A stretch of 41,612 nucleotides of DNA, from sequence record SRR2962707_625. One strand, written 5' to 3'. Below the pieces are notes generated by a model. That model saw nothing but the letters and a program-made list of their open reading frames with translations, searched no databases and was not told the DNA's origin. Positions 9,520 through 23,910 of the stretch are shown here, one piece after another (positions within the stretch are counted from its first letter, which is position 1; each line of letters begins with the position of its first letter). Made by a program: the position numbers and the translations under genes.

Positions 9520-9535
9520 GCTTACGCGCCTGAAC

Positions 9536-9827: not shown

Positions 9828-11105
9828 TCAGGATTGTTCCAGTGTTTGCAAAATGCAGCTGGCGGCCTTTTCTGCGCCATTGGCAGCCGTCATGTGCTGC
9901 GAAATCTGCTGCATGCGCTGCTTCAGGTTGTTGTCATTGAGCAGGGTCGTCATCGCATCGCATAGTTGGTGTGCGGTCCATCCGTCGCGCTGCATGTGGA
10001 TGCCGGTGCCGGTTTGCGCCGCGCGCAGGCCGTTGTCGTGTCCGTCCCAGCAATAGGGCATGATCAGCGACGGCACGCCATAATAGAGCGCTTCGCAATA
10101 GCTGTTGTTGCCGCCGTGGTGGATGAAGAGATCGGCCTGGGTGACGATCGAGGGCTGTGGAAACCAGCTGCCGAGATACACATTGTTGGGCACACTCTGG
10201 TAGTGTTCGAGGAAGCCGCCGACATTGACAAAAAAGCGCGCCGGGAAGGTGGCGAAAACACCGATCATGCGGGCAACAAGATCGGTGTCTATGGCCCCCA
10301 GGCTTCCGAAACTGAGATAGACGATGGGGCCGTCATTGACCGGCAGCGGCGGCGGATCGAAGCGGGCTTCCTCGCGCACGCAACCTTCGAGAAAGACAAA
10401 CAGATCCTCGGGCAAGGGATGTTCGCGCTGATGCCGGACCGCCTCGGGTGCGAGCAGCAGGTTGAGATGAGGCGATGTTTCGAGAAACTGGCCTTCCGGC
10501 AGGAGCCCAAGATTATGCCGGTTGCGAAAGGCATTGTAGCGGCTGTGGGCGGAGGCTGTGGACTTGAGATAGGCGGCTTCGAATGCGGGGCGCTCCGGCG
10601 AAGTCGCTGATAGACCCGACAGATAGGGCGGGACGTTGGGGTCCGGGATTTCGGTTTCGGCGCAGGACACCACGCGGATCCACGGCACTCCGGCATTGGC
10701 TATTGCGGGAAACATGATCACGTTGTCGAGCACGATGGCGTCGGGCTTGATCCGCTTGAGGAGGGTATCAAGTCCTCTCTCGGCCTGAATCGCCGTGTCG
10801 ACAATGGTTTCCCAGGTCGGGCGGACATAGGTTTCGAGCTGGGTCAGCGGACCCTGGTTGAAATGCTCGAGATGGGCGGTGATGAAAGCCTGCCAGGTTT
10901 CCTCGGTGCCCTGACTGGCAGCCTTCGATGCCGTGGGCAGCTGGTATTCCTTGAACCCGTACTCGTCAAAGACACCGGTAAACCCCTGATGGCACAGAAA
11001 GACGGGAACAGCGCCTTGACGCTGCAGCTGCTGGGCAATGCCGACGCAATTGAGCGCCGATCCGAAACTCGCCTCCGGAAAGAGGGCGATCACTGGCTTG
11101 GTCAC
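9828..11105 (-). CDS. GT1/UDP-glycosyltransferase-like protein (MGT/UDPGT fold), paralog A
   Basis: YLSFGSLG, WFPQ, FIHHGGNNS..EAL..GVP..IMP nucleotide-sugar-binding signature. Its GTG start overlaps the regulator's stop codon (GTGA). Confidence 0.85.
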   Translation of the reverse strand: MTKPVIALFPEASFGSALNCVGIAQQLQRQGAVPVFLCHQGFTGVFDEYGFKEYQLPTASKAASQGTEETWQAFITAHLEHFNQGPLTQLETYVRPTWETIVDTAIQAERGLDTLLKRIKPDAIVLDNVIMFPAIANAGVPWIRVVSCAETEIPDPNVPPYLSGLSATSPERPAFEAAYLKSTASAHSRYNAFRNRHNLGLLPEGQFLETSPHLNLLLAPEAVRHQREHPLPEDLFVFLEGCVREEARFDPPPLPVNDGPIVYLSFGSLGAIDTDLVARMIGVFATFPARFFVNVGGFLEHYQSVPNNVYLGSWFPQPSIVTQADLFIHHGGNNSYCEALYYGVPSLIMPYCWDGHDNGLRAAQTGTGIHMQRDGWTAHQLCDAMTTLLNDNNLKQRMQQISQHMTAANGAEKAASCILQTLEQS

Positions 11106-12037
11106 GCCATCCCCTTTCGTGCGAGTGGCAGCAATCCGCGGTTGGCGGCTTGCGGTTTGCGGATCTGGGAGCGTCGCAAGTGGAGCACCATCTGGTCTGC
11201 TGCCAGCTGGTGCTGCATCCGTTCGAGGCTGTCAAGGATGTCGAGATGTTCTTCCAGCGATTGCCGAAGCCGAAAATCGGGAATGCTGTTGTTCTTTTGC
11301 GTGGTCAGCCGCAAGCGCTGATGTGCCAGAAGCGCTCCGCAGATAAAGCGATTGCCGGAGCTTTCGGCAATCAGGCTGTGAAAGGCGCAATCGAGATGCA
11401 GGAAGGCGACGGCGCTCATGCTGCCGTCAGGGCGTTTGAGAAAGTCCTCCATCTGCTGGCGGAGCAGACCGGCTTTCAGGCTGTCCATCTCGAAGCCGGG
11501 GGCGGTGATCGCCTGTGGTTCGAGCGCAAGACGGAACGAGAGGCTCTCGGAAACCGCACCTGGCGTGTCCAGCAGGGGTTGGAAAGCCCAGGCGCGACCC
11601 GGCAATTGTGCCACAACCCCGTCAGTACTCAGTATTTTTAGCGCATTTAGTACAGCCGATCGCGGGACCTTGTAGCGGCGAACAAGCGAGCTCACGGATT
11701 GCACGTCGGTTATCCGGCGCTCCGCCCGATCCGACAGAATGCGCGTTGCCAGCGAGCCCTCCAGATCATCAAGTTGTGCTGTGCCGTTGAGGCCGATGTC
11801 TTCAGGCGAGTGATTGAGGAAATAACCTCCCTCTTCACGGCGTTGAACAATATCGTTTGATTCCAGTAACTTAAGTGCAGACCGTATCGGTGTTCGCGAG
11901 ACGCCGCAGGCTTGCGAAAGAGTGGTTTCCGGCAAGTGGTCACCATTCCTCATTCCACGCTCAAGGGCGACTTCAATGATCTTGCGCGCCAGCTTCAGGT
12001 GGTTCTGTCGGGTGTTGCTTCTTGTCCTTATCATCAC
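11102..12037 (-). CDS. GntR-family regulator with two tandem winged-HTH domains plus an FCD domain
   Basis: HTH1 LPETTLSQACGVSRTPIRSAL; HTH2 SVSSLVRRYKVPRSAVLNAL; FCD motifs D.AFH..IAE.SGN and EHL.ILD. Confidence 0.85.
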   Translation of the reverse strand: MMIRTRSNTRQNHLKLARKIIEVALERGMRNGDHLPETTLSQACGVSRTPIRSALKLLESNDIVQRREEGGYFLNHSPEDIGLNGTAQLDDLEGSLATRILSDRAERRITDVQSVSSLVRRYKVPRSAVLNALKILSTDGVVAQLPGRAWAFQPLLDTPGAVSESLSFRLALEPQAITAPGFEMDSLKAGLLRQQMEDFLKRPDGSMSAVAFLHLDCAFHSLIAESSGNRFICGALLAHQRLRLTTQKNNSIPDFRLRQSLEEHLDILDSLERMQHQLAADQMVLHLRRSQIRKPQAANRGLLPLARKGMA

Positions 12038-12114
12038 TCATCCCCCTGGCGGTGGTCGCAACCCCTGCTTCGTGGTGGTTTTGGGCCCAGTCGAGAAAAA
12101 ACTGCAAAAACAAA

Positions 12115-12142
12115 TTGACGTATCTTTTAAGGCATTAATACT
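12115..12142 (+). promoter_or_regulatory. Candidate sigma70 promoter/operator for the potD-like operon
   Basis: TTGACG at 12115-12120 and TAATACT at 12136-12142 lie in the AT-rich divergent intergenic region. GTAT-N14-ATAC forms a weak dyad. Confidence 0.35.
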
Positions 12143-12230
12143 GAACTAGAGGCGATCAACAAGAATCGCAAGTCAAAAGCTGCCGGGCGTCTGTACCGGC
12201 GTCTCAACAACGACCCTGGAGGTGAACTTG

Positions 12231-13295
12231 ATGACCAGACAATCCCCGCGCAGCCGCGTAATCCTGCGCAACACTGTCTTTACAGTCGCAATGGTGGCTG
12301 CGCTTGGCGCGCCGGCCATGGCAGACCCGCTGACCATTTCGAACTGGGACGGCTACATGGCCGCCGATGCGATCGAGAAATTCAATTCGGAATCCGGCAA
12401 TGAAGCGGAACTCGTTCTGCATGCCACAAATGAAGAGATCATGGGCAAGCTCATTGCTTCCAAGGGCGTGGGCTATGACGTGGTCTTTGTGTCCTCGCCA
12501 TTTGCCGAGGTGCTGCACAATCTCGGTCTCGCCGAAGAGCTCGATCATTCCAAGATCCCCAATCTCGCCAATCTCTACAAAGAAGCGACCGAATTGCCGC
12601 ATGATCCGGGCAACTCGTTCTCGCTGCCTTACGCCTGGGGTACGACCGGCCTGTGCTATCGTTCTGACCTTGTCGACGCTCCGTCGTCCTGGAACGATCT
12701 GCTCAAGCCATCCGAGGCAGTTTCGGGAAAGACCACAATGCTGGCAACCGACCGCTGGCTGCTGGCCGCCGGACAGTTGGCGCTGGGCTATTCGGTCAAT
12801 GAAACCGACGCAACGAAGATGGGCGAAGTCCGCGACCTTCTGATCGAAGCCAAGAAGACCTTGCTCGCCTATGACGATACGACCTTCTACGCCAAGCTGG
12901 TGTCCGGCGAAGCCGAACTGGTGCAGGCCTGGGACGGCTGGTGCAACTATGGAATTGGCGAAAACAGCGACATCAAATACGTCATTCCGAGCGAAGGATC
13001 CGATCTCTGGGTCGATACCATGGTGATCCTCAAGGCCTCGGAAAACAAGGATGCGGCCTACGCGTTCGTCAACTACATCCTTGATGCGGACAACCATCGC
13101 TGGGCGGCCGAGAACATTCTCTACAAGGTTCCCAACGAGGCGGCCATGAGCGGCGTCGACGCTTCTCTGATCGAAACCTATCCCAACATGGGTATGAAGC
13201 CTGCCGACATGCTCAAATACGAGCAATTGCTTGATGTCGGGGCTGCACAGCGCGATTACTCGCGTCTCGTGTCGGAGATCAAGGCTGCAAACTGA
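12231..13295 (+). CDS. Polyamine ABC transporter substrate-binding protein (PotD/PotF family)
   Basis: Signal peptide; NWDGY, TNEE, GYDVV, PYAWGTTG, QAWDG and P.EG...WVD motifs. RBS GGAGGT at 12218-12223 favours ATG 12231. Confidence 0.9.
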   Translation: MTRQSPRSRVILRNTVFTVAMVAALGAPAMADPLTISNWDGYMAADAIEKFNSESGNEAELVLHATNEEIMGKLIASKGVGYDVVFVSSPFAEVLHNLGLAEELDHSKIPNLANLYKEATELPHDPGNSFSLPYAWGTTGLCYRSDLVDAPSSWNDLLKPSEAVSGKTTMLATDRWLLAAGQLALGYSVNETDATKMGEVRDLLIEAKKTLLAYDDTTFYAKLVSGEAELVQAWDGWCNYGIGENSDIKYVIPSEGSDLWVDTMVILKASENKDAAYAFVNYILDADNHRWAAENILYKVPNEAAMSGVDASLIETYPNMGMKPADMLKYEQLLDVGAAQRDYSRLVSEIKAAN

Positions 13296-13309
13296 ATTGC
13301 AGTGAGAAA

Positions 13310-13336
13310 CCTCCGGATGCTGTCTGCATCCGGAGG
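13310..13336 (+). terminator. Stem-loop after the SBP gene
   Basis: Perfect 11-bp inverted repeat CCTCCGGATGC-TGTCT-GCATCCGGAGG. Confidence 0.6.
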
Positions 13337-13367
13337 CCTTCCTACCTATTGAACGCCGGTCGAGCCG

Positions 13368-14243
13368 GTGCAGGCCGTGGTGATGACAACCGATCGCAGA
13401 CCCCTTTTATTGATGTCGCCGGCGCTGTTGTGGCTGACCGGTCTGATGGTCATCCCATGTGGCTTGATCCTGGTTCTCGCGTTCTTCAGGCGCGGCATCT
13501 ATGGCGGGATCGAATACACCTTTACGCTGGAAAACATCGCGCTGGTCTTCGACCCGCTGTATTTTCAGATCTTTCTCAAATCGGCTGGAATTGCGGGACT
13601 GTCCGCCGCAATTGCCTGTGTGCTTGGCTATGGTGCTGCCTACGCCATCGCTGCCATGCCGCGTAGCAGGCAACCGATGCTGCTGTTCTTTGCGGTTCTG
13701 CCGTTCTGGTCAAATTATCTGGTGCGAACCTATGCCTGGATCGTGCTTCTCAACCGCGAAGGGCTGATCGTCAATCTGGCCCGCTGGTTGGGGTACACTG
13801 GCGAACTGCCAAGCATGCTTTATACGGAGCAGGCCGTGGTGATCGGGCTGGTCTACAACTATCTGCCCTTCGTGATCCTTGCCTGCTATGCGCCGTTGTC
13901 ACGCCTCAACCCCGAAATCACTGAGGCGTCGCGGGATCTGGGCGCATCGGCCTGGACCACGTTTCGCCGGGTCACGCTGCCGATGACGGTGCCGGGCATT
14001 GCCACCGGGTTCGTGTTCGTCTTCGTGCTTTCAATCGGCAATTTCGTGACGCCGGCGCTGCTGGGCGGCGGTCAGTTCCAGATGATCGGTAACCTGGTCT
14101 ATGCCCAGTTCCTGACCGCCAATGACTGGCCGTTCGGTGCCGCCCTGTCGATGGTGTTGATCGCGGTGATGCTGGGGCTGCTTATGGGGCAGGCGATTGT
14201 TGCCGAGCGGGCGAGTGGCGGGAAGGCGCGGGCAGATGACTGA
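13368..14243 (+). CDS. Polyamine ABC transporter permease (PotB-like)
   Basis: LPFWSNYLVRTYAW, YNYLPF, EASRDLGA (EAA loop) and DWPFGAALS. The start could be 13383. Confidence 0.9.
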   Translation: MQAVVMTTDRRPLLLMSPALLWLTGLMVIPCGLILVLAFFRRGIYGGIEYTFTLENIALVFDPLYFQIFLKSAGIAGLSAAIACVLGYGAAYAIAAMPRSRQPMLLFFAVLPFWSNYLVRTYAWIVLLNREGLIVNLARWLGYTGELPSMLYTEQAVVIGLVYNYLPFVILACYAPLSRLNPEITEASRDLGASAWTTFRRVTLPMTVPGIATGFVFVFVLSIGNFVTPALLGGGQFQMIGNLVYAQFLTANDWPFGAALSMVLIAVMLGLLMGQAIVAERASGGKARADD

Positions 14244-15027
14244 CCGCAAGACCTTCCGCCTCATGCTCATGATCCTCGGTGTCGTGTTCGCGTTCCTGTA
14301 CATACCGATTTCGATTCTCGTCGGTCTGTCGTTCAACGAGGGTGGCCTGCCGACGGCCTGGACCGGCTTTTCGGTCAAGTGGTACGGCGCGCTGCTCGAG
14401 AACGACGATATCCTGAAGGCTGCCGGCAACACGTTGATCGTCGCACTCTTCTCGACAGTGCTCTCCACCACTCTTGGCACCTTGCTGGCTGTCGGCGTTG
14501 AAATCCGCCGCCGCAACGGGAAGTGGCTGGAGACAATCATCTTTGCCCCGATGATCATACCTGACATCGTTCTGGCGATTGCACTTTTGAGCATGTTCTC
14601 GCTGCTCGGGGTCAAAATGGGTTTGCACACCATCATTGTAAGCCATGTGGTGTTCAATCTGGCATTTGTCTGCGCGGTGGTGCGGGCGCGGCTCAAGAGT
14701 TTTGACTGGTCGATCGTCGAGGCGTCGGCTGATCTCGGCGCATCGACCCTGATCACGCTCTACCGTGTCGTCATACCGGTGTTGATGCCGGCGATCGTCG
14801 CAGGCGGGCTGCTGGCCTTCACCCTGTCGGTTGATGAATTCATCATCGCTTTTTTCACCGCTGGTGCGGGCCGGTCGTCAATCACCCTGCCCATGCAGAT
14901 TTTCGCGATGATCCGGTTCGGTGTCACGCCGGAAATCAACGCGCTTGCCACCATCGTCATGTCCGTCTCGGTCGTTGCACTGGCCTTGTCGCAGCGACTG
15001 AACAAGGGAGGGCTTCCCGGCCAATGA
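14236..15027 (+). CDS. Polyamine ABC transporter permease (PotC-like)
   Basis: FLYIPI...SFN, EASADLGA EAA loop, LSVDEF, TLPMQI and TPEINALAT. Confidence 0.9.
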   Translation: MTDRKTFRLMLMILGVVFAFLYIPISILVGLSFNEGGLPTAWTGFSVKWYGALLENDDILKAAGNTLIVALFSTVLSTTLGTLLAVGVEIRRRNGKWLETIIFAPMIIPDIVLAIALLSMFSLLGVKMGLHTIIVSHVVFNLAFVCAVVRARLKSFDWSIVEASADLGASTLITLYRVVIPVLMPAIVAGGLLAFTLSVDEFIIAFFTAGAGRSSITLPMQIFAMIRFGVTPEINALATIVMSVSVVALALSQRLNKGGLPGQ

Positions 15028-16085
15028 CCCAACCGTTTTTAAGCATTCAAAACGTCGAAAAATACTTTGCCACGGTGCGGGCAGTTGCCGGAGTCTCCCT
15101 CGACATCAGGGAAAACGAGTTCTTTGCGCTTCTGGGTGCGTCGGGCAGCGGCAAGACCACGCTGTTGCGGATGCTGGCCGGGTTCGAAGACATCAGCGGC
15201 GGAGACATTCAGATCGAGGGGGCTTCGATTGCCAAGCTGCCGCCGAACCAGCGGCCGGTCAATCTGATGTTTCAATCCTACGCGCTGTTTCCGCACATGA
15301 GCGTTGCCCAAAATATCGGCTACGGACTTGAAATGGAACGGTTGCCAAAGGCCGAGGTGACGGCGCGGGTCGACGAGATCCTCAAGGTCATTCAACTCAG
15401 CCATCTTGCCGGGCGTAAACCGGATCAGCTTTCTGGTGGCCAGCGCCAGAGGGTTGCCCTGGCGCGCGCGCTGGTCAAGCGGCCGAAGGTGCTGCTGCTT
15501 GATGAGCCGCTGGGTGCGCTCGACAAGAAGCTGCGCAGCGAGATGCAACTGGAACTCAAGCGCCTGCAGCATCAGTTCGGGATCACCTTCATCATGGTTA
15601 CGCACGACCAGGAAGAAGCGCTGGTCATGGCCGACCGCATCGCCATCATGAAAGACGGCGCATTGCTTCAGGTCGGGCCGCCCAAGGATATCTACGAATT
15701 GCCGCAGTCGCGCTTTGCAGCCGATTTTATCGGCGTGATGAACTTTCTGCCGGTCACTGCCGATCATATCGGGTTCAGCGCCCGCGACGGCAGCAGGATT
15801 GCCGCTACCCATATCAATAAGGGTGCGGGTTCGGGCGACGCTGTCGCGGCCGTTCGGCCGGAACGGTTGTCGATCGGGCAGGAGGGTGAGAACCGGCTCG
15901 AAGGTACGGTATCAGCCATCGCCTATCACGGTCTCGATCTGCTTCTGCACGTCAGTACCGGGCTGACCGACACCCCGGTGATCGCCCGCATGACGGCCGA
16001 TGTGGCTGACACTCACCATCCGCAAGAAGGCCAGCAGATCGCGCTGAGCTGGTCGGCGCGCGACACGCATGTTTTCCCGGCCTGA
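15024..16085 (+). CDS. Polyamine ABC transporter ATP-binding protein (PotA/PotG-like)
   Basis: Walker A GASGSGKT, LSGGQ, LLLDEPLGALDKKLR, THDQEEA and a C-terminal TOBE-like region. Confidence 0.92.
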   Translation: MTQPFLSIQNVEKYFATVRAVAGVSLDIRENEFFALLGASGSGKTTLLRMLAGFEDISGGDIQIEGASIAKLPPNQRPVNLMFQSYALFPHMSVAQNIGYGLEMERLPKAEVTARVDEILKVIQLSHLAGRKPDQLSGGQRQRVALARALVKRPKVLLLDEPLGALDKKLRSEMQLELKRLQHQFGITFIMVTHDQEEALVMADRIAIMKDGALLQVGPPKDIYELPQSRFAADFIGVMNFLPVTADHIGFSARDGSRIAATHINKGAGSGDAVAAVRPERLSIGQEGENRLEGTVSAIAYHGLDLLLHVSTGLTDTPVIARMTADVADTHHPQEGQQIALSWSARDTHVFPA

Positions 16086-16117
16086 AGGGCCCAACCAGAA
16101 TGACCAGAGGAGACAAC

Positions 16118-17395: not shown

Positions 17396-17751
17396 GCAAT
17401 CTCTCTTCAAGCGCGCCACACATTCACGGTGCGAGTGACTTTGACGACCTGGTGGATTGGGGCGCGCAACCGGATGCTTTGGCAGGGACGTCGCATTCCA
17501 CCGGCCGCCTTTTGTACAAGGGACCGGGCAACATTCCCGAAACCGGGGTCTGGGACTGCACGCCGGGACGTTGGCGGCTGTCAGTCCCGCGCGACGAGTT
17601 CTGTCATTTCGTCAAGGGACGAGCGACCTATAGGTCCGATGCCGGCGAGGTGATTGAAGTGGTGGCCGGCACCTGCGTGCTGTTTCCCGCCGGGTGGACC
17701 GGCGAGGCCGAAATCCACGAGACAATCCGCAACATCTACATGCTCAGCTGA
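17392..17751 (+). CDS. Cupin (DUF861/Cupin_3, EutQ-like)
   Basis: GVWDCTPG.W...DEFCHF..G...FPAGW.G motif; ATGA overlap with the glycosyltransferase gene. Confidence 0.8.
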   Translation: MSNLSSSAPHIHGASDFDDLVDWGAQPDALAGTSHSTGRLLYKGPGNIPETGVWDCTPGRWRLSVPRDEFCHFVKGRATYRSDAGEVIEVVAGTCVLFPAGWTGEAEIHETIRNIYMLS

Positions 17752-17761
17752 GGCCAGACTT

Positions 17762-18106
17762 ATGAAAACACCTGTCATGCACAAACCGCTCGAGGTGACC
17801 GAAACCGTAGATTGGGGCGTCATCCCGACCATGATCGAGGGGGAATCGCGCGTCAGCGGCGTGGTTCTGCACAAGGGCCCAGGCGGTCAGTCCGAATGCG
17901 GATTGTGGATCTGCACGCCCGGCAAATGGGACTGTCACGTTACCAGCGACGAATTCTGCCATTTCCTCGAAGGCCGCTGCACCTATGTGCACGAAAGCGG
18001 TGACGTCATCGAGGTCACGCCTGACACGGCGGCATTTTTCCCCAAGGACTGGAAGGGCGTCTGCACCGTTCATGAGACCATCAAGAAGGTCTACATGATC
18101 CGATGA
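17762..18106 (+). CDS. Cupin (DUF861/Cupin_3, EutQ-like)
   Basis: GLWICTPGKW...DEFCHFLEG...FP.DW.G...KKVY; tandem paralog of the upstream cupin. Confidence 0.8.
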   Translation: MKTPVMHKPLEVTETVDWGVIPTMIEGESRVSGVVLHKGPGGQSECGLWICTPGKWDCHVTSDEFCHFLEGRCTYVHESGDVIEVTPDTAAFFPKDWKGVCTVHETIKKVYMIR

Positions 18107-19128
18107 GCATGGCGGGAACCCTTCCACGTCTGGAACCGCCGGCTGCGGTCTTTCTGGCACGGCACGGCCTTTCCGAGGCCGGGCTGGAGCCGTTGCCGAG
18201 CGATGCCTCGCCGCGCAGCTACTGCAGAGTGGTCGGGGAAGGGAAACTGTTGATGGAGGACCGTACCGATCCTGTCGGCTATGGCGCTTTTATCCGCCTT
18301 GCGCGCCATCTCAATTCCCTGGGGCTGAGTGCGCCGCGTATCTATGGCTCGGACCCGGCGGTGGGGCTTGCGCTGATCGAGGATTTTGGCGCTGGCACCT
18401 ACGGCAAGCTTCTTGCAGACGGCCATGACGAGACGGCACTCTACGAGCTGGCAATCGATGCGCTTGTGCGGCTGCACAGTCACCCCGATGCCTGCAACGT
18501 GATGGTGCCTGCCTATGATCTGGATATGCTGATCGAGGAGGTTTCCAGGTTTCCCCACTGGCTTGTGCCCGAGCTCGACGCAAAGATCGATATCGGGGAA
18601 TTCGATGCCGGTTTTTGCGCGCTGTGGCGAAAGGCGCTTGCGCCGCTTGACGACGCGCCGAAAACCCTGGTTCTGCGCGATTTTCATGTCGACAACCTGA
18701 TGCTGCTGGAAGACCGGCCAGGATTTGCCGCCTGCGGTCTGCTCGACTTCCAGGACGGTGTCGCAGGCGCTGCGGAATACGATCTGGCGTCGCTGTTGCA
18801 GGACGCGCGACGCGATCTTGCGCCGGGTCTCGAGCACGCAATGCTGGAGCGGTACCTGGCCGCTGCACCTGCTTTTTGTGGAACGCGGGAAGAGATCCTG
18901 CACCGCTATCACCTGCTTGCCGCACAACGTCACACCAGGCTGATGGGGCAGTTCGTGCGCCTGATGCGGCGTGACGGCAAAGCCGGCTATCTGACCTTCA
19001 TGCCCCGCGTGGCAAGCCAGGTGCAGAAAGCACTGACCGCGGCCGGCCTTGCCGGGATCGCGGATTATCTTGACACCGAGCTGCCCGGATGGCGCGACGC
19101 CGGCCGCAGGCTGGCCACTCTTTCCTGA
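18103..19128 (+). CDS. APH-fold phosphotransferase, AmgK-like (anomeric amino-sugar 1-kinase family)
   Basis: DASPRSY.R, EDFG, RDFHVDNLM, LDFQD, YDLASLLQDAR and QRH...G.F.RL..RDGK..Y motifs. Confidence 0.78.
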   Translation: MSMAGTLPRLEPPAAVFLARHGLSEAGLEPLPSDASPRSYCRVVGEGKLLMEDRTDPVGYGAFIRLARHLNSLGLSAPRIYGSDPAVGLALIEDFGAGTYGKLLADGHDETALYELAIDALVRLHSHPDACNVMVPAYDLDMLIEEVSRFPHWLVPELDAKIDIGEFDAGFCALWRKALAPLDDAPKTLVLRDFHVDNLMLLEDRPGFAACGLLDFQDGVAGAAEYDLASLLQDARRDLAPGLEHAMLERYLAAAPAFCGTREEILHRYHLLAAQRHTRLMGQFVRLMRRDGKAGYLTFMPRVASQVQKALTAAGLAGIADYLDTELPGWRDAGRRLATLS

Positions 19129-19138
19129 AGGAATTGTC

Positions 19139-20644
19139 ATGTTGGACATTCAAAACCCCTGTTATTTTCTGACCCCGGATTTCCTCGCCTCTACGGGGCA
19201 GGGAGAGGGTGTGATAGATCCTGCGACGCTTGATACGGTCGGCATCCGCGGCAGCGTCACGCCAGACGAGATCGAAACGGTTCTCGACCAGGTCAATCAG
19301 GCACAATCGGCCTGGAAGATCGTGGACGCGAAATCGCGCGCGAAGATACTCCACACGCTGGCCAATCGTATCGACGCGGCTGATTTTACCGAGTGCGCCA
19401 TCCTGATGAGCCGCGAGATGGGGAAACCCTATCCGGAGGCCATTGGCGAGATTGCCAATTGCGCACCTATCTTTCGCTACTATGCGGAAATGGCGCGCGA
19501 TGACGCCGGCAAGGTTGCCGGGACGACGCAGGCGGGATCGCTGCAATTCGCCAAATACGAGCCGCTCGGCGTGTCGGTTCACATCATGCCGTTCAACTTC
19601 CCGATCCTGCTGATGTGCTGGACGGTGGCGGCATCGCTGGCGGCCGGCAATGGCTGCGTGATCAAGCCCGCCGAAGCAACGACACTATCGACGCTTTCCT
19701 TCATGGAGATGTTTGCCGACCTGCCCGCGGGGCTCGTTGCCTGCCTGCCAGGCGGCGCTGATGTGGGCAAGGCGCTGGTCGCGAGCCGCAAGACCCATGC
19801 GGTTGCCTTTACCGGTTCGGTTGCGGCCGGGCAGGCGGTTGCCGCTGCGGCTGCTGCCCGGATGAAGCCCTCGGTGATTGAGGCCGGCGGCTCGGATCCG
19901 ATGATCATCACGGCACACGCGCCGATCGAGATAGCTGCCGCGGGGGCGGTGACCGGCGCCTTCCACATGTCGGGCCAGGTCTGCACCTCGACAGAGCGGC
20001 TCTATGTGGTCGATGGCGTCCACGACGCCTTTGTCGACGCCTTCAAGGCGGAGACCTTGCGGCTGCGCATCGGCAACGGGCTGGACAAGTCCGAGATCGG
20101 ACCACTGGTCAGCAAGGCTGCCCGCGACAAGGTGGAACGGCTGGTGGCCGATGCCGTGGCAAAGGGCGCCAAGGTTGTCTGCGGCGGCCGCGTTCCGCCG
20201 GAGCACAATGTCGGCTGGTTTTACGAGCCGACAATCCTGACGGGCTGCACAGCGGAAATGGACATCCTGCATGAGGAGTGCTTCGGGCCGGTCGCAGCGA
20301 TTGTCCGGGTACCCGATTTCGATGCGGCGGTCGCAGGCGCCAATGCATCGGAGTTCGGTCTGGGCGCCAGTGTCTTCACCACGTCGCTGGAAGAGGCGCA
20401 CGAAGCCCATGAACGGCTTGAGGCCGGTATGGTCTGGATCAACAATCCGATGATCGACAACGACGCGCTGCCCTTTGGCGGGTGGAAAAACTCAGGCCAG
20501 GGACGCGAACTTGGACGCATGGGCCTCGATACGTTCCGCCGCTCCAAGATGGTGATCCTCGATCACAAACCGGTTCGTCAGGACTGGTGGTATCCGTATC
20601 CCGACGACTGGTTCCTTGATGCGGGCGGACGCAAGATTTCCTGA
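19139..20644 (+). CDS. NAD(P)-dependent aldehyde dehydrogenase
   Basis: PFNFP, KPAE, FTGS, catalytic E in EAGG, catalytic C in GQVC, EECFGP and PFGGWK.SG.GRE. Confidence 0.9.
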   Translation: MLDIQNPCYFLTPDFLASTGQGEGVIDPATLDTVGIRGSVTPDEIETVLDQVNQAQSAWKIVDAKSRAKILHTLANRIDAADFTECAILMSREMGKPYPEAIGEIANCAPIFRYYAEMARDDAGKVAGTTQAGSLQFAKYEPLGVSVHIMPFNFPILLMCWTVAASLAAGNGCVIKPAEATTLSTLSFMEMFADLPAGLVACLPGGADVGKALVASRKTHAVAFTGSVAAGQAVAAAAAARMKPSVIEAGGSDPMIITAHAPIEIAAAGAVTGAFHMSGQVCTSTERLYVVDGVHDAFVDAFKAETLRLRIGNGLDKSEIGPLVSKAARDKVERLVADAVAKGAKVVCGGRVPPEHNVGWFYEPTILTGCTAEMDILHEECFGPVAAIVRVPDFDAAVAGANASEFGLGASVFTTSLEEAHEAHERLEAGMVWINNPMIDNDALPFGGWKNSGQGRELGRMGLDTFRRSKMVILDHKPVRQDWWYPYPDDWFLDAGGRKIS

Positions 20645-20659
20645 GACTGGAGACCACAG

Positions 20660-22141
20660 ATGCAGACGACGAAGCTTTACATTGATGGCGCGTTCGTCGC
20701 GCCGCGCGCTGGTGGAAGCCTGGAGGCGATCAACCCGGCCACCGAAACGACTTTCGCCCGGATTGCCGCAGGCGCGTCCGAGGATGTCGACCAAGCGGTG
20801 CGTGCCGCCCGACGGGCCTTTGATCTCGGGCCCTGGCCGCACATGCCCGCGGCTGAACGTGCGGCGGCGCTCAGGCGCATCGCTCAGGGCATCACCGACC
20901 GGCTGCCTGAAATCGCCGCAGCAGAAACCCGGGACAACGGCAAGCCGGTGCCTGAATCCGAGTGGGATGTGGGCGACGCTGCCTTCGTGTTCAGCTATTA
21001 CGCAGATCTGGCCGAGAGCCATGAAGCGGAAGGCGCGCAGTCCGTGGATCTTGGCGATGAGGCGTTTTCCAGCACGATCAGTACAGAACCGCTGGGTGTT
21101 GTCGGGGCCATCACGCCGTGGAATTTTCCCTTGCTGATGGCGGTCTGGAAAGTTGCTCCAGCACTGGCGGCGGGCTGCACCATCGTGCTCAAACCGTCTG
21201 AATTCTGTTCTGTCAGTTGCGCCCTGCTGGCTGAAATCATTGATGCCGCGGGCCTTCCTGCCGGCGTGTTCAATCTGGTTACCGGGACTGGGCCCGCGGC
21301 CGGTGCGCCGTTGGCGGATCATCCGCTGGTCGACAAGCTGGCTTTCACCGGCTCGGTGCCGACGGGGCGCAAGGTGATGACGGCGGCTGCAGCAGGCATT
21401 CGCACGGTTTCGCTCGAACTGGGTGGCAAGTCTCCCTTCATCATTTTTGATGATTGCGACATTGAAAAAGCAGTCGAATGGATCCTTTTCGGGGTGTTCT
21501 GGAACAAGGGTGAAGTGTGCTCGGCAACGTCGCGGGTGCTGGTTCAGCGCGGGCTCTACCCCAGGCTGATGGAACGGCTGGTCGAAGCCACTCAAGCAAT
21601 CACCATCGGACCGGGTGATGCCGAAGGCGTCAAGCTCGGGCCGCTGGTGTCGAAACAGCAATATGACAAGGTTCTCGCCGCGATCGAGGCAGGCAAGAAG
21701 ACGAATGCACGTCTGGTGACCGGCGGCGGACGGCCGTCCGGACTTGATACGGGCTATTACGTTGCGCCGACGATCTTTGCCGACGTGCCCACCGATGCTG
21801 CAATCTGGCGCGAGGAAATCTTTGGCCCGGTGGTCTGCGTAAACCCCTTCGACACGGAAGAGGACGCGCTGACGCTGGCCAATGACAGCCCTTATGGGCT
21901 GGCCGGGGCCGTGATGTCGGATGATCTCGAGTGCTGTGAACGGGTGGCTTCGAAACTGCGCGCCGGGATCATCTGGATTAATTGCTCGCAGCCTACCTTC
22001 ACCCAGGTGCCGTGGGGCGGTTACAAATCCTCCGGCATCGGGCGGGAGCTCGGAACATCAGGCTTCATGGGTTTTAGGGAGATCAAGCAGATCACCCGCT
22101 ACGACAATACGCGAAGCTGGGGCTGGTACCTCACATCATGA
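20660..22141 (+). CDS. Aldehyde dehydrogenase, aminoaldehyde/betaine-aldehyde (ALDH10-like) type
   Basis: PWNFP, FTGS, ELGGKSP, FWN.GEVCSATSR, WINCSQP and a C-terminal WGWY, as in ALDH10-family enzymes. Confidence 0.88.
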   Translation: MQTTKLYIDGAFVAPRAGGSLEAINPATETTFARIAAGASEDVDQAVRAARRAFDLGPWPHMPAAERAAALRRIAQGITDRLPEIAAAETRDNGKPVPESEWDVGDAAFVFSYYADLAESHEAEGAQSVDLGDEAFSSTISTEPLGVVGAITPWNFPLLMAVWKVAPALAAGCTIVLKPSEFCSVSCALLAEIIDAAGLPAGVFNLVTGTGPAAGAPLADHPLVDKLAFTGSVPTGRKVMTAAAAGIRTVSLELGGKSPFIIFDDCDIEKAVEWILFGVFWNKGEVCSATSRVLVQRGLYPRLMERLVEATQAITIGPGDAEGVKLGPLVSKQQYDKVLAAIEAGKKTNARLVTGGGRPSGLDTGYYVAPTIFADVPTDAAIWREEIFGPVVCVNPFDTEEDALTLANDSPYGLAGAVMSDDLECCERVASKLRAGIIWINCSQPTFTQVPWGGYKSSGIGRELGTSGFMGFREIKQITRYDNTRSWGWYLTS

Positions 22142-23520
22142 TAGCGGCACTGTCCAACACAATCCCCGAACCCTACTGGAGCAGCGACGTCGAAGCCGCA
22201 CCGGCCTGTGCTGCGCTGGCGTCTGACCTGTCGTGCGATCTGGCGATTGTCGGCGGTGGTTTTACCGGTCTCTGGTCGGCGCTCAAGGCAAAAGAACAAC
22301 AGCCTGATGCGCATATTGTGCTGCTGGAGGCCGGGCGCTGCGGCAAGGATGCCAGCGGCCGCACCGGCGGATTTTGCGCGCCATCGATTTCGCATGGCGT
22401 CTCAAACGCTCTTGACCGGCACCCGGGCGAAGCGGAAACCCTGATCCGTCTCGGTCGGCAAAATCTTGCGGAGTATGAGCGGGATCTGGACGTTCACGGT
22501 CTTGATGCCGGATTCAAATTGTCAGGCAAGCTCAATGTCGCGGCCACCCCATGGCAGGTTCAAGGGCTTGAGGCGATGGCGCGAAACTACGAACGCTTCG
22601 GGATCGAGTGCGAGTTTTTATCGGGCAATGCGCTGAAGGAAAAACTCGACAGTCCGGTATATGTGGCGGGCCTGTTCGAGCCAAATTACGCGTTGATCCA
22701 TCCGGCGAAAACCGTCAATGAATTGCGGCGGGTCTGTCTCGCCAAGGGCGTTGAGATATTTGAAGGCACGCCTGTTTCGGGTCTATCCCGTGACGGGAAG
22801 GGGATTGCATTGCGAACGCCTCAGGCCCGGGTCAAGGCGACCAAGGTGATCCTGGCAACCAATGCTGCCGTGCCTTTGCTGAACAGGCTGAAGTCGGCCT
22901 TCATACCGATTTACGACTATTCGATCGTCACCGAACCTCTCAGTGAAACGCAATGGGCGGGCATCGGCTGGAGCGGGGATTACGGCATCGCTGACAGCGG
23001 CAACCAGTTTCACTATTTCCGCAAGACGCCGGATGGACGGATGCTGTGGGCCGGATACGACGCGATCTATCACTATGGCAGCAATCGCGACGCCGCCAAT
23101 TTGCAACGCGACGAAAGCTTCGAGCGATTGGCCGGCCAGTTTGCAGCAACATTCCCAAGTCTTGGCAATGTTGCATTTTCCCACGCCTGGGGTGGTATCA
23201 TCGATACCTCCGCGCGGACGACATTCTTCGCCGGCACCGCCTATCGCGGACAGCTTGCCTACGCAATGGGGTTCACCGGGCAGGGGGTGTCGGCGAGCCG
23301 CTTTGCCGCACTGACCATGCTGGACCTGCTTGAGGACAGGGACACCGAGCGTACACGGTTGAAAATGCCGCGGCGCTGGCCTGTGCCATTCCCGCCCGAG
23401 CCGGTGCGCAGCCTGGCGGTTCGGATGGCACAGAAGGGTCTTGCGCAAGAAGATCTGACCGGCCGCCGACCGGCCCTTTTACGACTTCTCGATGCGCTGG
23501 GCATCGGCTTTGCCTCCTGA
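22138..23520 (+). CDS. FAD-dependent amine oxidoreductase (PuuB/OrdL-like, DAO/DadA superfamily)
   Basis: GGGFTGLW dinucleotide-binding motif, ASGR.GGF, TEPL, FHYFR.TPD.R, WGG and G.TG.GV.ASRF; polyamine-transporter context. Confidence 0.82.
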   Translation: MIAALSNTIPEPYWSSDVEAAPACAALASDLSCDLAIVGGGFTGLWSALKAKEQQPDAHIVLLEAGRCGKDASGRTGGFCAPSISHGVSNALDRHPGEAETLIRLGRQNLAEYERDLDVHGLDAGFKLSGKLNVAATPWQVQGLEAMARNYERFGIECEFLSGNALKEKLDSPVYVAGLFEPNYALIHPAKTVNELRRVCLAKGVEIFEGTPVSGLSRDGKGIALRTPQARVKATKVILATNAAVPLLNRLKSAFIPIYDYSIVTEPLSETQWAGIGWSGDYGIADSGNQFHYFRKTPDGRMLWAGYDAIYHYGSNRDAANLQRDESFERLAGQFAATFPSLGNVAFSHAWGGIIDTSARTTFFAGTAYRGQLAYAMGFTGQGVSASRFAALTMLDLLEDRDTERTRLKMPRRWPVPFPPEPVRSLAVRMAQKGLAQEDLTGRRPALLRLLDALGIGFAS

Positions 23521-23529
23521 GAGATTCCC

Positions 23530-23910
23530 ATGACAAAATCCACACCTGATCAGCCCGCGCATGTCATTGCCTTTGACACCAGTGGGCCAGCACGCGAGAG
23601 CCGCGTTGATGATCCCGCACTGGTGGACGTGCCCTATACTTCCAGGAGCTGGCGCTGTTTCGGGTCCGCAGATGGCCGCGCGCTGAGCGGTATCTGGGAG
23701 GCGGGGCCGCATCAGGAGAGGTGCAGTTGCGATTTCGATGAGATGTGCCATATCGTTGAAGGGCAGGTGCGCCTGACCGACGCCTCGGGCACCGCGCAAG
23801 TTTTCGGACCAGGCGACAGTTTTGTTGTCGCTGCCGGATTTCAGGGAACCTGGGAAAACCTCAGCTTCGTCCGCAAGGTCTATTTCATTCTAGGCAGCAA
23901 GCCAGAGTAG
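23530..23910 (+). CDS. Cupin (DUF861/Cupin_3)
   Basis: SGIWEA.P...DEMCHIVEG.V...GDSFV..AGF.GTW...RKVY. Confidence 0.8.
   Translation: MTKSTPDQPAHVIAFDTSGPARESRVDDPALVDVPYTSRSWRCFGSADGRALSGIWEAGPHQERCSCDFDEMCHIVEGQVRLTDASGTAQVFGPGDSFVVAAGFQGTWENLSFVRKVYFILGSKPE

What the first reader, a model, noticed from the sequence alone, without database searches (positions are those of the whole stretch)
9828..23910. Candidate undescribed amine-catabolic system: polyamine-type uptake and oxidation coupled to glycosyltransferases and an anomeric sugar kinase instead of gamma-glutamylation
Seen: one regulator-controlled locus with several ATGA/GTGA overlaps encodes a PotDBCA-type ABC transporter, a GT1-like enzyme, two cupins, an AmgK-like kinase, two ALDHs, a PuuB-like FAD oxidoreductase and a third cupin. 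A second GT1 sits on the divergent arm. Established: PuuB/PauB oxidases and PuuC/PauC dehydrogenases normally work with a gamma-glutamyl ligase (PuuA/PauA, glutamine-synthetase fold) and a hydrolase (PuuD/PauD). These cap one amine so the aminoaldehyde cannot cyclise. Neither of these, nor an aminotransferase or acetyltransferase, is in the locus; sugar-transfer enzymes are present instead. Inference: the locus either (a) caps a di/polyamine by N-glycosylation before oxidising the other end, or (b) imports a naturally glycosylated amine, removes the sugar by a reverse GT reaction and salvages it with the kinase. I do not know of a described pathway with this composition.
Basis: partly seen in the sequence, partly recalled or inferred. 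Interest (0 to 1): 0.85.

Follow-up and report, generated by a model that had tools for sequence, protein, structure and literature searches.

The report
Conserved glycosyltransferase-linked amine breakdown operon
This is a real, widely shared but uncharacterised bacterial operon that joins amine uptake and oxidation genes to unusual sugar-transfer enzymes, hinting at a way of breaking down amines that has not been described.

Summary
All 14 genes are at the stated coordinates, and six junctions overlap (five by 4 nt, one by 8 nt). The gene order recurs in Alpha- and Gammaproteobacteria and on Rhizobiaceae plasmids, and its core also sits on haloarchaeal plasmids.

Of 61 related loci with enough flanking DNA:
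- 57 keep the Pot-type binding protein.
- 60 keep a Cupin_3 gene next to the first glycosyltransferase (GT_A).
- 59 keep the first aldehyde dehydrogenase (ALDH1).
- 55 keep the second glycosyltransferase (GT_B) and the GntR regulator.

The oxidase (45 of 61), the AmgK-like kinase (41), ALDH2 (26) and the third cupin (23) are accessories. The invariant unit is therefore GT_A + Cupin_3 + ALDH1.

All 163 GTs examined lack the catalytic His of GT1 but keep the nucleotide-binding motif. Fourteen loci add a stand-alone GlmU-type uridylyltransferase. The archaeal copy instead has a ROK kinase and a GlmM-like mutase. The sugar is therefore probably a hexosamine.

PuuA- and PuuD-like genes are missing from the window and rare in related loci (4 and 1 of 83).

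My searches found no description of this cluster. The mechanism is still open. I favour a recyclable UDP-HexNAc cap on an amine (about 0.35) over import of a natural amino-glycoside (about 0.25).

The parts
9828..11105 (-). GT_B: GT1/MGT-type glycosyltransferase paralogue, 42% identical to GT_A. Its GTG start overlaps the GntR stop codon (GTGA).
   Evidence: Pfam; NCBIfam; pairwise comparison; junction. Present in 55 of 61 loci. Absent genome-wide in 5 of 5 genomes whose locus lacks it.
11102..12037 (-). GntR/FCD regulator, 311 aa, with a second HTH-like stretch at residues 114-149.
   Evidence: Pfam GntR 54 bits, FCD 47 bits and a TrmB hit below its cut-off. Present in 55 of 61 loci.
12038..12221 (.). 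Divergent intergenic region with one sigma-70-like site at 12115-12142 (+).
   Evidence: The number of promoter-like sites in the scanned region is no higher than in shuffled sequence (4 against a mean of 4.8), so this is only a candidate.
12222..13295 (+). PotD/PotF-family periplasmic binding protein.
   Evidence: Pfam. NCBIfam PotD 128 bits, below the 582 cut-off. PDB PotD-type hits at E 2e-40 to 1e-35; residue mapping. Present in 57 of 61 loci.
13368..14243 (+). ABC permease 1.
   Evidence: Pfam BPD_transp_1. Present in 57 of 61 loci.
14236..15027 (+). ABC permease 2. The ORF opens at 14197; the likely start is ATG 14236, which overlaps permease 1 by 8 nt.
   Evidence: Pfam; junction. Present in 57 of 61 loci.
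15024..16085 (+). ABC ATPase with a TOBE_2 domain.
   Evidence: Pfam; ATGA overlap. Present in 58 of 61 loci.
16100..17395 (+). GT_A: GT1/MGT-type glycosyltransferase that lacks the catalytic His. Orthologues start at the Met encoded at 16118.
17392..17751 (+). Cup1: Cupin_3 (DUF861), 119 aa. Its start overlaps the GT_A stop (ATGA).
   Evidence: Pfam 58.6 bits; alignment; junction. Present in 53 of 61 loci.
17762..18106 (+). Cup2: Cupin_3 (DUF861), 114 aa. It is the most constant partner of GT_A.
   Evidence: Pfam 60.7 bits. Present in 60 of 61 loci. Model pLDDT 92.1. Best structural matches are DUF861 proteins of unknown function.
18103..19128 (+). APH-family kinase most like the anomeric GlcNAc/MurNAc kinase AmgK.
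   Evidence: Pfam APH. NCBIfam AmgK 223 bits, below the 500 cut-off. Present in 41 of 61 loci. A 39% paralogue lies elsewhere in the closest held genome.
19139..20644 (+). ALDH1: the aldehyde dehydrogenase of the conserved core. The ORF opens at 19049; the probable start is 19139.
   Evidence: Pfam; NCBIfam; junction. Present in 59 of 61 loci. 61% identical to the haloarchaeal copy.
20660..22141 (+). ALDH2: aldehyde dehydrogenase nearest to the betaine/aminoaldehyde type.
   Evidence: NCBIfam BADH 522 bits, below the 668.6 cut-off. 38% identical to E. coli PuuC. Present in 26 of 61 loci.
22138..23520 (+). DAO-family FAD oxidoreductase, a distant relative of PuuB and of the phosphonate-cluster amine oxidoreductases.
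   Evidence: Pfam DAO. TIGR03329 239.5 bits, below the 632.8 cut-off. 28% identical to PuuB. No PDB sequence match. Present in 45 of 61 loci.
23530..23910 (+). Cup3: third Cupin_3. It follows the oxidase and lacks the C-terminal His-Glu of Cup1 and Cup2.
   Evidence: Pfam; alignment. Present in 23 of 61 loci.

Best explanation
The locus is a horizontally spread catabolic operon for a cationic amine. Its heart is GT_A, a Cupin_3 protein and ALDH1.

Most likely mechanism (inferred, not shown):
1. The Pot-type ABC system imports an amine.
2. The His-less GT1 enzyme(s) transfer a hexosamine, probably GlcNAc from UDP-GlcNAc, onto it as a temporary cap.
3. The far end of the capped molecule is turned into an aldehyde by a variable enzyme. 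Here that is the DAO oxidoreductase. Elsewhere it is a saccharopine-dehydrogenase-like enzyme, another DAO-type enzyme, or a transaminase encoded elsewhere.
4. ALDH1 oxidises the capped aldehyde to the acid.
5. A cupin removes the cap as free sugar.
6. The AmgK-like kinase, with a GlmU-type uridylyltransferase (in the operon in 14 loci, housekeeping GlmU here), rebuilds the UDP-sugar.

In this scheme GT, ALDH1 and cupin play the parts of PuuA, PuuC and PuuD. GT_B is co-transcribed with the GntR regulator. It may cap a second site or make the inducer.

Shown: the gene families, the conserved linkage, the loss of the catalytic His and the hexosamine flavour of the accessory genes. Inferred: the acceptor, the direction of the GT reaction, the role of the cupins and the identity of the substrate.
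For: **Linkage.** Of 61 loci with enough flank (out of 80 kept from 396 confirmed relatives):
- Cup2 is present in 60, ALDH1 in 59, the binding protein in 57, GT_B and GntR in 55 each.
- DAO is present in 45 and the kinase in 41.

The same trio, at 57%, 50% and 61% identity, sits on Natrialba magadii pNMAG01.

**Ties to amine catabolism.**
- Pot-type ABC genes accompany the GT in most loci.
- PuuA- and PuuD-like genes flank the GT in L083.
- A glutamine-synthetase-family gene and a type-1 glutamine amidotransferase gene flank it in N. magadii.
- An APH-aminotransferase fusion and a DAO gene lie beside it in L096.
- An amine-oxidase gene lies in L073.

**Sugar reactivation, recruited in two non-orthologous forms.**
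- Bacteria: an AmgK-like kinase plus a stand-alone GlmU N-domain in 14 loci, all 14 of which also have the kinase and DAO.
- Archaeon: a ROK kinase plus a GlmM-like mutase.
- The stand-alone enzyme keeps every GlmU residue that I recall as contacting UDP-GlcNAc (the residue roles are recalled, not tested).

**The GTs.**
- They keep the HHGG...S...E and D-x-x-D-N nucleotide-sugar motif.
- The catalytic-His position holds P, A or S in 163 of 163 sequences, while E17 and D133 are invariant.
- This fits an acceptor that is not a hydroxyl, and the N-terminal domain is rich in invariant acidic residues.

**Variable aldehyde-forming step.** This mirrors the oxidase-or-transaminase choice known in polyamine catabolism.
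Against: - No enzyme activity is known for any protein in this clade.
- In 14 of 61 loci neither DAO nor the kinase is present. In 5 of 5 such genomes no DAO orthologue exists at all, the best match being 29-32% identical. In those genomes the source of the aldehyde is unexplained.
- N-glycosides of aliphatic amines are labile, and I know of no GT1 that makes them (own knowledge).
- The cupins show no tie to any hydrolase. E. coli AllE shares only the Pfam family through its N-terminal domain and has no pairwise similarity. The structural neighbours are proteins of unknown function.
- One locus (L073) replaces the ABC system with a glycoside-type MFS_2 carrier. That fits an imported glycoside better.
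- An anomeric kinase plus a uridylyltransferase can also be a purely catabolic route for HexNAc, as in the bifidobacterial GNB/LNB pathway (recalled).
- The binding protein has lost three of the PotD residues that hold polyamine nitrogens.
Confidence: 0.35

Rival explanations
1. The operon imports a natural cationic glycoside: an amine that already carries a HexNAc or similar sugar. The GT(s) run in reverse (glycoside + UDP -> UDP-sugar + aglycone) or otherwise detach the sugar. The aglycone is converted through an aldehyde to an acid by the cupins, DAO and ALDHs. The kinase and uridylyltransferase feed released sugar into sugar-1-phosphate and UDP-sugar pools.
For: - In L073 an MFS_2 (glycoside-pentoside-hexuronide type) carrier replaces the ABC system inside the cluster, and a TonB-dependent receptor lies upstream.
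- The binding protein keeps the aromatic box and the equivalent of D257 but has lost E36, D168 and E171 of PotD. Its ligand is therefore not an ordinary polyamine.
- A ROK kinase plus a GlmM-like mutase in N. magadii can run from sugar-1-P to sugar-6-P.
- The core works without the oxidase. This is easier to explain if the aglycone breaks down to an aldehyde by itself.
Against: - I know of no catabolic pathway that uses a GT1 in reverse (own knowledge).
- If the GT yields UDP-sugar directly, an anomeric kinase is not needed.
- No candidate natural substrate is known that is shared by marine Alphaproteobacteria, Halomonadaceae, soil Rhizobiaceae and haloarchaea.
- The MFS_2 evidence rests on one locus.
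Confidence: 0.25
2. GT_A, the cupin and ALDH1 carry out other sugar-nucleotide-dependent chemistry on the imported compound. One option is activation of a carboxylate or another non-hydroxyl group as a glycosyl ester that the ALDH-type enzyme then processes. Another is conjugation for detoxification or storage. In either case amine oxidation is only a side branch.
For: - The missing catalytic His would also suit an anionic acceptor such as a carboxylate.
- GT_A plus a cupin occurs alone, without ABC, ALDH1 or DAO genes, in L066, L081, L097 and L099.
- FCD-type GntR regulators usually sense carboxylates (own knowledge).
Against: - Across distant lineages the recurring neighbours are amine-catabolic genes: Pot-type ABC, DAO, PuuA- and PuuD-like genes, and aminotransferases.
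- The invariant acidic residues of the GT N-terminal domain argue for a cationic acceptor rather than an anionic one.
Confidence: 0.25
3. The operon is an ordinary polyamine uptake and oxidation locus, and the glycosyltransferases are unrelated passengers, for example envelope or antibiotic-modifying enzymes.
For: The GTs score best against macrolide-type GT models, and the kinase belongs to the APH family. Both families include resistance enzymes.
Against: - GT_A is the most conserved gene of the cluster, 78-97% identical across classes.
- It lies inside the operon with overlapping stop and start codons.
- It keeps its cupin and ALDH1 partners in archaea.
- The kinase scores as AmgK-like, not as an antibiotic kinase.
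Confidence: 0.05

Closest known systems
Gamma-glutamyl (Puu/Pau) pathway of putrescine and polyamine catabolism (E. coli puuPADRCBE)
   Same: An importer, a DAO-family amine oxidase, an aldehyde dehydrogenase and a local repressor lie together. The logic of cap, oxidise and uncap would be the same if the capping model holds.
   Different: - The window has no glutamine-synthetase-type ligase and no GATase hydrolase, and these are rare in relatives: 4 and 1 of 83 loci.
- The oxidase is only 28% identical to PuuB, and the ALDHs are 33% and 38% identical to PuuC.
- The oxidase is dispensable.
- GT1-type enzymes and Cupin_3 proteins take the conserved positions.
AmgK-MurU anomeric kinase / uridylyltransferase salvage of MurNAc and GlcNAc (Pseudomonas; recalled), and the NahK route of bifidobacteria (recalled)
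   Same: An APH-family kinase scores best against the AmgK models. In 14 loci it is paired with a sugar-1-phosphate uridylyltransferase.
   Different: - The kinase falls below the AmgK cut-off (223 against 500 bits) and is only 39% identical to the second AmgK-like gene of the closest genome.
- The transferase is a stand-alone GlmU N-domain, not MurU.
- The pair sits in an amine-catabolic operon, not a cell-wall recycling one.
GT1 UDP-glycosyltransferases: spider-mite UGT203A2/UGT202A2 (PDB 7lvy, 6pnt) and the macrolide GTs OleD/MGT
   Same: GT-B fold. The closest solved relatives are 7lvy (E 7.6e-61) and 6pnt (E 2.1e-31). The C-terminal nucleotide-sugar motif is conserved.
   Different: - The catalytic His in the mite 'FGHVNA' stretch is P, A or S in all 163 members examined.
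- The Q of the sugar-binding DQ pair is G in 162 of the 163; the Streptomyces sequence keeps Q.
- The proteins fall below the MGT cut-off.
- They sit in a catabolic context with a cupin partner.
PotABCD / PotFGHI polyamine ABC importers
   Same: Same four-component architecture. The binding protein hits PotD and PotF structures. It keeps W34, Y37, S83, W229, W255, D257 and Y293 of PotD.
   Different: T35, E36, Y85, D168 and E171 of PotD are D, G, P, T and W here. The score is 128 bits against a cut-off of 582. The ligand is probably not putrescine or spermidine bound in the classical way.
DUF861 / Cupin_3 proteins (3bcw, 3es4, 3myx; EutQ; N-domain of ureidoglycine aminohydrolase AllE)
   Same: Pfam Cupin_3 above its cut-off. 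The Cup2 model matches 3bcw with TM-score 0.86.
   Different: The nearest structures have no known function. Cup2 has no pairwise similarity to AllE. EutQ matches only at TM-score 0.64-0.65.

Membership tests
Puu/Pau gamma-glutamyl polyamine pathway | A glutamine-synthetase-fold gamma-glutamyl ligase (PuuA/PauA) in the locus | tested here: not met
   tblastn with E. coli PuuA gives no hit in the window and hits in 4 of 83 related loci. Pfam on the window ORFs shows no Gln-synt domain.
Puu/Pau gamma-glutamyl polyamine pathway | A class-I glutamine-amidotransferase-type hydrolase (PuuD/PauD) in the locus | tested here: not met
   tblastn with E. coli PuuD gives no hit in the window and a hit in 1 of 83 loci, L083.
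Puu/Pau gamma-glutamyl polyamine pathway | A PuuB-type FAD oxidase and a PuuC-type aldehyde dehydrogenase | tested here: inconclusive
   The Pfam families are the same, but identity is only 28% (DAO against PuuB) and 33% and 38% (ALDH1 and ALDH2 against PuuC). Substrate specificity cannot be tested here.
GT1 / MGT (macrolide-type) UDP-glycosyltransferases | A GT-B C-terminal nucleotide-sugar binding motif | tested here: met
   Pfam EryCIII-like_C, UDPGT and Glyco_tran_28_C. The H-[HQT]-GG, [ST] and E positions and the D-x-x-D-N motif are kept in all 163 sequences; HHGG is exact in 161.
GT1 / MGT (macrolide-type) UDP-glycosyltransferases | A catalytic His near the N-terminus acting as general base | tested here: not met
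   Aligned to the His of UGT203A2 are P (GT_A) and S (GT_B). Across 163 sequences the position holds P in 97, A in 47, S in 19 and H in none.
GT1 / MGT (macrolide-type) UDP-glycosyltransferases | A score above the NCBIfam TIGR01426 cut-off | tested here: not met
   126.2 bits (GT_B) and 109.1 bits (GT_A) against a cut-off of 260.
AmgK anomeric GlcNAc/MurNAc kinase | A score above the NCBIfam equivalog cut-off | tested here: not met
   223.4 bits against 500 (NF045698) and 107.5 bits against 550 (NF045759). AmgK is still the best-scoring family by far.
AmgK anomeric GlcNAc/MurNAc kinase | Phosphorylation of the anomeric hydroxyl of an N-acetylhexosamine | not testable with these tools
   Only indirect support exists. 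A GlmU-type uridylyltransferase follows in 14 loci.
PotD/PotF polyamine-binding proteins | Conserved ligand-contact residues of E. coli PotD (residue list recalled) | tested here: inconclusive
   7 of 12 mapped positions are kept: W34, Y37, S83, W229, W255, D257 and Y293. Five are changed: T35D, E36G, Y85P, D168T and E171W.
Cupin_3 / DUF861 | A Pfam PF05899 score above the gathering cut-off | tested here: met
   58.6, 60.7 and 68.8 bits for Cup1, Cup2 and Cup3 against a cut-off of 23.5.
GlmU uridylyltransferase domain (stand-alone, in 14 related loci, not in the window) | UDP-GlcNAc contact residues of E. coli GlmU (residue list recalled) | tested here: met
   L11-G14, R18, K25, Q76, G81, T82, Y103, D105, G140, E154, N169 and N227 are invariant in 6 of 6 stand-alone proteins aligned. 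I aligned 6 of the 14. NF010933 gives 265.6 bits over the N-terminal half only.

The most novel reading that the evidence does not exclude
The operon may be a sixth route of bacterial and archaeal amine/polyamine catabolism that uses a recyclable sugar instead of glutamate or acetate as the protecting group.
- A His-less clade of GT1 enzymes N-glycosylates an aliphatic amine with GlcNAc from UDP-GlcNAc.
- The capped aminoaldehyde is oxidised by ALDH1.
- A DUF861 cupin releases the sugar.
- An AmgK-like kinase and a GlmU-type uridylyltransferase close the cycle.

If true, this would give DUF861 its first biochemical role in this setting. It would also define the first GT1 acting on aliphatic amines in primary catabolism.
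Probability: 0.3. Interest if true: 0.85.

Novelty: new variant of a known kind. Interest (0 to 1): 0.7.

Why it matters
**Ecology.** Polyamines and related amines are a major part of marine dissolved organic nitrogen. Their uptake proteins are among the most abundant in surface seawater (abstract of PMC8437039, seen in the listing).

**State of knowledge.** A 2022 review lists five bacterial polyamine utilisation routes and never uses the word stems 'glycosyl' or 'glucosyl' (passages of PMC9397018).

**Spread.** The cluster occurs in:
- about 4-5% of sampled alphaproteobacterial species genomes (20 of 401 and 13 of 301)
- a few Gammaproteobacteria (3 of 401)
- Rhizobiaceae plasmids and haloarchaeal plasmids

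GT_A is 78-88% identical across bacterial classes. This points to strong constraint and to horizontal spread.

**What solving it would give.**
- A function for a large His-less GT1 clade whose nearest solved relatives are spider-mite detoxification UGTs.
- A function for DUF861 cupins.
- The identity of an unknown nitrogen-containing substrate used by bacteria associated with plants and algae.

Tried and rejected
- **Co-folding of GT_A with Cup2**. The verdict was 'no answer' (score 0.02 against a mark of 0.34). It counts neither for nor against binding.
- **Earlier notes of this scan**. Nothing on this genome; one unrelated hit.
- **ESM Atlas for Cup2**. Only 'cupin domain-containing protein' clusters came back.
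- **PDB by sequence for the oxidase**. No match at E <= 1e-5.
- **Cup3 paralogues in five genomes**. Nothing informative.
- **Cupins as relatives of ureidoglycine aminohydrolase.** AllE's N-terminal domain is Cupin_3 by Pfam, but there is no pairwise similarity. I dropped this as support.
- **Fold search of the Cup2 model**. The best hits have no known function. The PpnP nucleoside phosphorylase (TM-score 0.61) and a cupin hydroxynitrile lyase (0.62) match only at the general cupin level.
- **Promoter and terminator scan**. Counts were no higher than in shuffled sequence.
- **Literature**. No paper on this cluster, on glycosylated polyamine catabolism, or on DUF861 with polyamines. Only full texts were searched. 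Supplementary gene tables, such as polyamine transcriptomes or transposon fitness sets, could not be seen and may list these genes.
- **Substrates considered and set aside for lack of any supporting gene.** Opines and Amadori compounds, rhizopine, aminophosphonates, cyanogenic glycosides, glycosylated hydroxylysine and chitosan oligomers.
- **An apparent stop in the L035 GT_A gene**. It lies upstream of the start codon, so the gene is intact.

Full report
**1. What is in the window**

- On the minus strand lie a GT1-type glycosyltransferase (GT_B, 9828-11105) and a GntR/FCD regulator (11102-12037).
- The plus strand carries, in order:
  - a PotD-family binding protein, two permeases and an ATPase
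  - a second GT1 (GT_A, 16100-17395)
  - two Cupin_3 genes
  - an APH-family kinase
  - two aldehyde dehydrogenases
  - a DAO-family flavoenzyme
  - a third Cupin_3

Junctions:
- The stop and start codons overlap as GTGA at GntR/GT_B.
- They overlap as ATGA at Perm2/ATPase, GT_A/Cup1, Cup2/kinase and ALDH2/DAO.
- Perm2 probably overlaps Perm1 by 8 nt.

All best NCBIfam hits fall below their curated cut-offs:
- MGT 126 and 109 bits against 260
- PotD 128 against 582
- AmgK 223 against 500
- BADH 363 and 522 against 668.6
- Phn_aa_oxid 239.5 against 632.8

The names are therefore family likenesses. The oxidase is 28% identical to E. coli PuuB. The ALDHs are 33% and 38% identical to PuuC.

The rest of the window holds copper-resistance genes upstream and sugar and hexuronate genes downstream. 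It holds no glutamine-synthetase-like, amidotransferase, aminotransferase or acetyltransferase gene.

**2. Is the gene set conserved?**

Sequence conservation:
- GT_A is very strongly conserved. The 120 best database hits are 78-88% identical. Their sources name Roseobacter, Shimia, Maritimibacter, Ancylobacter, Aidingimonas, Franzmannia, Marinomonas and others.
- The best hit is a Hoeflea MAG at 97%, so the window probably comes from Hoeflea.

Method of the linkage count:
- I compared all 14 window proteins with these loci by tblastn.
- I counted only the 61 of 80 loci with at least 6.5 kb upstream and 7.5 kb downstream. The other 19 were dropped because they lie on short contigs or at contig ends.
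- A hit had to cover at least 60% of the query at 40% identity or more.

| Gene | Present in (of 61) |
|---|---|
| Cup2 | 60 |
| ALDH1 | 59 |
| ATPase | 58 |
| Binding protein | 57 |
| GT_B | 55 |
| GntR | 55 |
| Cup1 | 53 |
| DAO | 45 |
| Kinase | 41 |
| ALDH2 | 26 |
| Cup3 | 23 |

- DAO and the kinase go together: both in 39 loci, neither in 14, DAO alone in 6, kinase alone in 2.
- Three Rhizobiaceae plasmids show the same order.

**3. Core and accessories**

- Eleven loci hold only GT_B, GntR, the ABC genes, GT_A, Cup1, Cup2 and ALDH1.
- In five genomes with such minimal loci the best DAO match anywhere is 29-32% identical. The oxidase is therefore truly absent there.
- In five genomes whose locus lacks GT_B there is no GT_B elsewhere.
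- More distant orthologues (51-68% identity, nine loci) still show ABC + GT_A + cupin(s) + ALDH1 + another DAO-type gene in four cases (L100-L103). Three (L096, L097, L099) show just GT_A + cupin.
- On Natrialba magadii plasmid pNMAG01 a GT (57% to GT_A), a cupin (about 50%) and an ALDH (61% to ALDH1) lie in a row.

The invariant unit is GT_A + Cupin_3 + ALDH1.

**4. Extra genes that point to the sugar**

- I clustered 1,582 unassigned ORFs from the 83 loci. Only one family recurred in more than five loci.
- It is a protein of about 252 aa between ALDH2 and DAO, found in 14 loci. All 14 also carry the kinase and DAO.
- It is a stand-alone N-terminal (uridylyltransferase) half of GlmU: 265.6 bits over profile positions 2-242 of 453.
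- In an alignment with E. coli GlmU, six of the 14 were tested. They keep every residue I recall as touching UDP-GlcNAc (the roles are recalled).
- The window lacks this gene. The closest held genome has only the full-length GlmU (39% identity) and a second AmgK-like kinase (39%).
- In N. magadii the trio is followed instead by a ROK-family kinase and a mutase that scores best as archaeal GlmM (288 bits, below the 439 cut-off).

Two unrelated gene pairs that both lead towards a hexosamine-1-phosphate or UDP-hexosamine have thus been recruited to the same trio. This makes GlcNAc or a close relative the likely sugar.

**5. Ties to amine catabolism**

Besides the Pot-type importer and the DAO enzyme:
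- Four loci lacking DAO carry a saccharopine-dehydrogenase-like gene after ALDH1.
- In L083 the GT is divergent from PuuD- and PuuA-like genes and heads another Pot-type ABC operon.
- In N. magadii the trio adjoins an ABC system with a PotD-like binding protein. Next to it lie a GS-family gene (gamma-glutamylputrescine synthetase model, 250 bits, below cut-off), a type-1 amidotransferase, two DAO-type genes and a class-III aminotransferase.
- In a small-genome alphaproteobacterium (L096) the GT and cupin lie next to an APH-aminotransferase fusion and a DAO gene.
- In a Halieaceae MAG (L073) an MFS_2 carrier replaces the ABC system, and an amine-oxidase gene lies upstream.
- PuuA-, PuuD- and PuuE-like genes occur in only 4, 1 and 4 of 83 loci.

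**6. The enzymes themselves**

Glycosyltransferases:
- GT_A and GT_B are 42% identical paralogues.
- Their nearest solved relatives are the spider-mite UGT203A2 (7lvy, E 7.6e-61) and UGT202A2 (6pnt).
- The mite enzyme has the catalytic His in 'FGHVNA'. GT_A has Pro and GT_B has Ser at that position.
- Over 163 GT_A/GT_B-type sequences in all held loci, including the archaeal and a Streptomyces one, this position is P in 97, A in 47, S in 19 and never H.
- The preceding Glu (E17), the Asp that usually pairs with the His (D133) and the nucleotide-sugar motif are kept. The Q of the DQ sugar-contact pair is G in 162 of the 163; the Streptomyces sequence keeps Q.

Binding protein, aligned to E. coli PotD (residue roles recalled):
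- Kept: W34, Y37, S83, W229, W255, D257 and Y293.
- Changed: T35D, E36G, Y85P, D168T and E171W.
- This suggests a ligand with one PotD-like amine end and a different remainder.

Cupins:
- The three share a DE-x-C-H motif. Cup1 and Cup2 have an extra His-Glu that Cup3 lacks.
- A confident Cup2 model (pLDDT 92.1) matches DUF861 structures of unknown function best: 3bcw at TM-score 0.86, then 3es4 and 3myx. EutQ follows at 0.64-0.65.

**7. Mechanism**

Facts any model must explain:
- An imported cation.
- A nucleotide-sugar enzyme without the base needed for hydroxyl acceptors.
- A cupin always at its side.
- An aldehyde dehydrogenase.
- A variable aldehyde-forming enzyme.
- Optional genes that turn a free hexosamine into its UDP form.

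The model that uses every part is a sugar cap:
1. GT + UDP-HexNAc caps one amine.
2. DAO, or its substitutes, makes the aldehyde at the other end.
3. ALDH1 makes the acid.
4. A cupin removes the sugar.
5. The kinase and uridylyltransferase recycle it.

I put this at about 0.35. Its weak points are:
- the minimal loci without any oxidase
- the chemical lability of alkyl glycosylamines
- the lack of any evidence for the cupins' activity

Alternatives:
- Import of a natural amino-glycoside with reverse or other sugar removal, about 0.25. This is favoured by the MFS_2 replacement, the altered binding pocket and the oxidase-free core.
- Other sugar-nucleotide chemistry, about 0.25.
- GTs as mere passengers, about 0.05. 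This is contradicted by the synteny and the overlapping codons.

**8. Novelty and spread**

- None of my searches found a paper on this cluster.
- A 2022 review gives five polyamine routes: acetylation, gamma-glutamylation, aminotransferase, direct oxidation and spermidine dehydrogenase. The stems 'glycosyl' and 'glucosyl' occur nowhere in its text (passages only).
- Supplementary tables were not available.
- GT_A-type genes were found in:
  - 20 of 401 sampled genomes of the class of the Hoeflea relative
  - 13 of 301 of the order of Celeribacter, 12 of them with a GT_B about 6 kb away
  - 3 of 401 of the class of the Halieaceae MAG
- Those three counts include the centre genomes themselves.
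- The trait is patchy, often plasmid-borne and shared across domains, so it spreads horizontally.

I rate it a new variant of a known kind (a capped or conjugate-based amine catabolic operon). The biochemistry is open, and I score interest at 0.7.

Noticed in passing
window 17-9008: A copper-resistance block lies upstream of the finding. It holds a P-type ATPase (17-2062), an outer-membrane efflux protein (3569-5266), two multicopper oxidases (5288-6655 and 7608-9008) and a cupredoxin (6671-7180).
   Followed up: no
window 24090-39948: Downstream lie several sugar-related gene sets:
- a ribose-type sugar ABC system (24090-28684)
- two GntR/FCD regulators and a PfkB kinase (28703-31054)
- a TRAP transporter (32584-35428)
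- an SDR, a mannitol-dehydrogenase-family gene and UxuA (36499-39948)

The last three look like a hexuronate set. None of these genes is conserved next to the cluster in other loci.
   Followed up: partly
window 16100-17395; PDB 7lvy and 6pnt: The nearest solved relatives of this bacterial GT clade are UDP-glycosyltransferases of the spider mite Tetranychus urticae (E 7.6e-61 and 2.1e-31). I recall these being proposed to have come from bacteria by gene transfer. The mite enzymes keep the catalytic His that this clade lacks.
   Followed up: partly
window 11102-12037: At 311 aa the GntR regulator is longer than usual for FCD-type members. It has a second HTH-like stretch (TrmB hit at residues 114-149, below cut-off) between the GntR and FCD domains.
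   Followed up: no
L105 (Natrialba magadii pNMAG01), 1-19550 in locus coordinates: A haloarchaeal plasmid carries the GT-cupin-ALDH trio next to a Puu-type gene set and beside hut genes. ALDH1 matched at the nucleotide level (72% identity) to this plasmid and to a Natronorubrum plasmid. This suggests transfer between bacteria and archaea.
   Followed up: partly
L081 / G012: The record title calls this MAG 'uncultured Flavobacteriaceae bacterium'. Yet its genome was drawn among the class of the Hoeflea relative. Its GT_A is 79-80% identical to the window's. The label or the binning may be wrong.
   Followed up: no
L096 4491-6905: An 804-aa fusion of an APH-family kinase with a class-III aminotransferase lies two genes upstream of GT_A, in a genome with a 1.6-Mb contig and 48% GC. 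I recall this architecture from amino-alcohol kinase / phospho-lyase systems.
   Followed up: no
L073 5757-9979: In the Halieaceae locus a TPR-sulfotransferase, a flavin amine oxidase and a PhyH-type dioxygenase precede GT_A, and a TonB-dependent receptor lies further upstream. Whether they belong to the same pathway is unknown.
   Followed up: no
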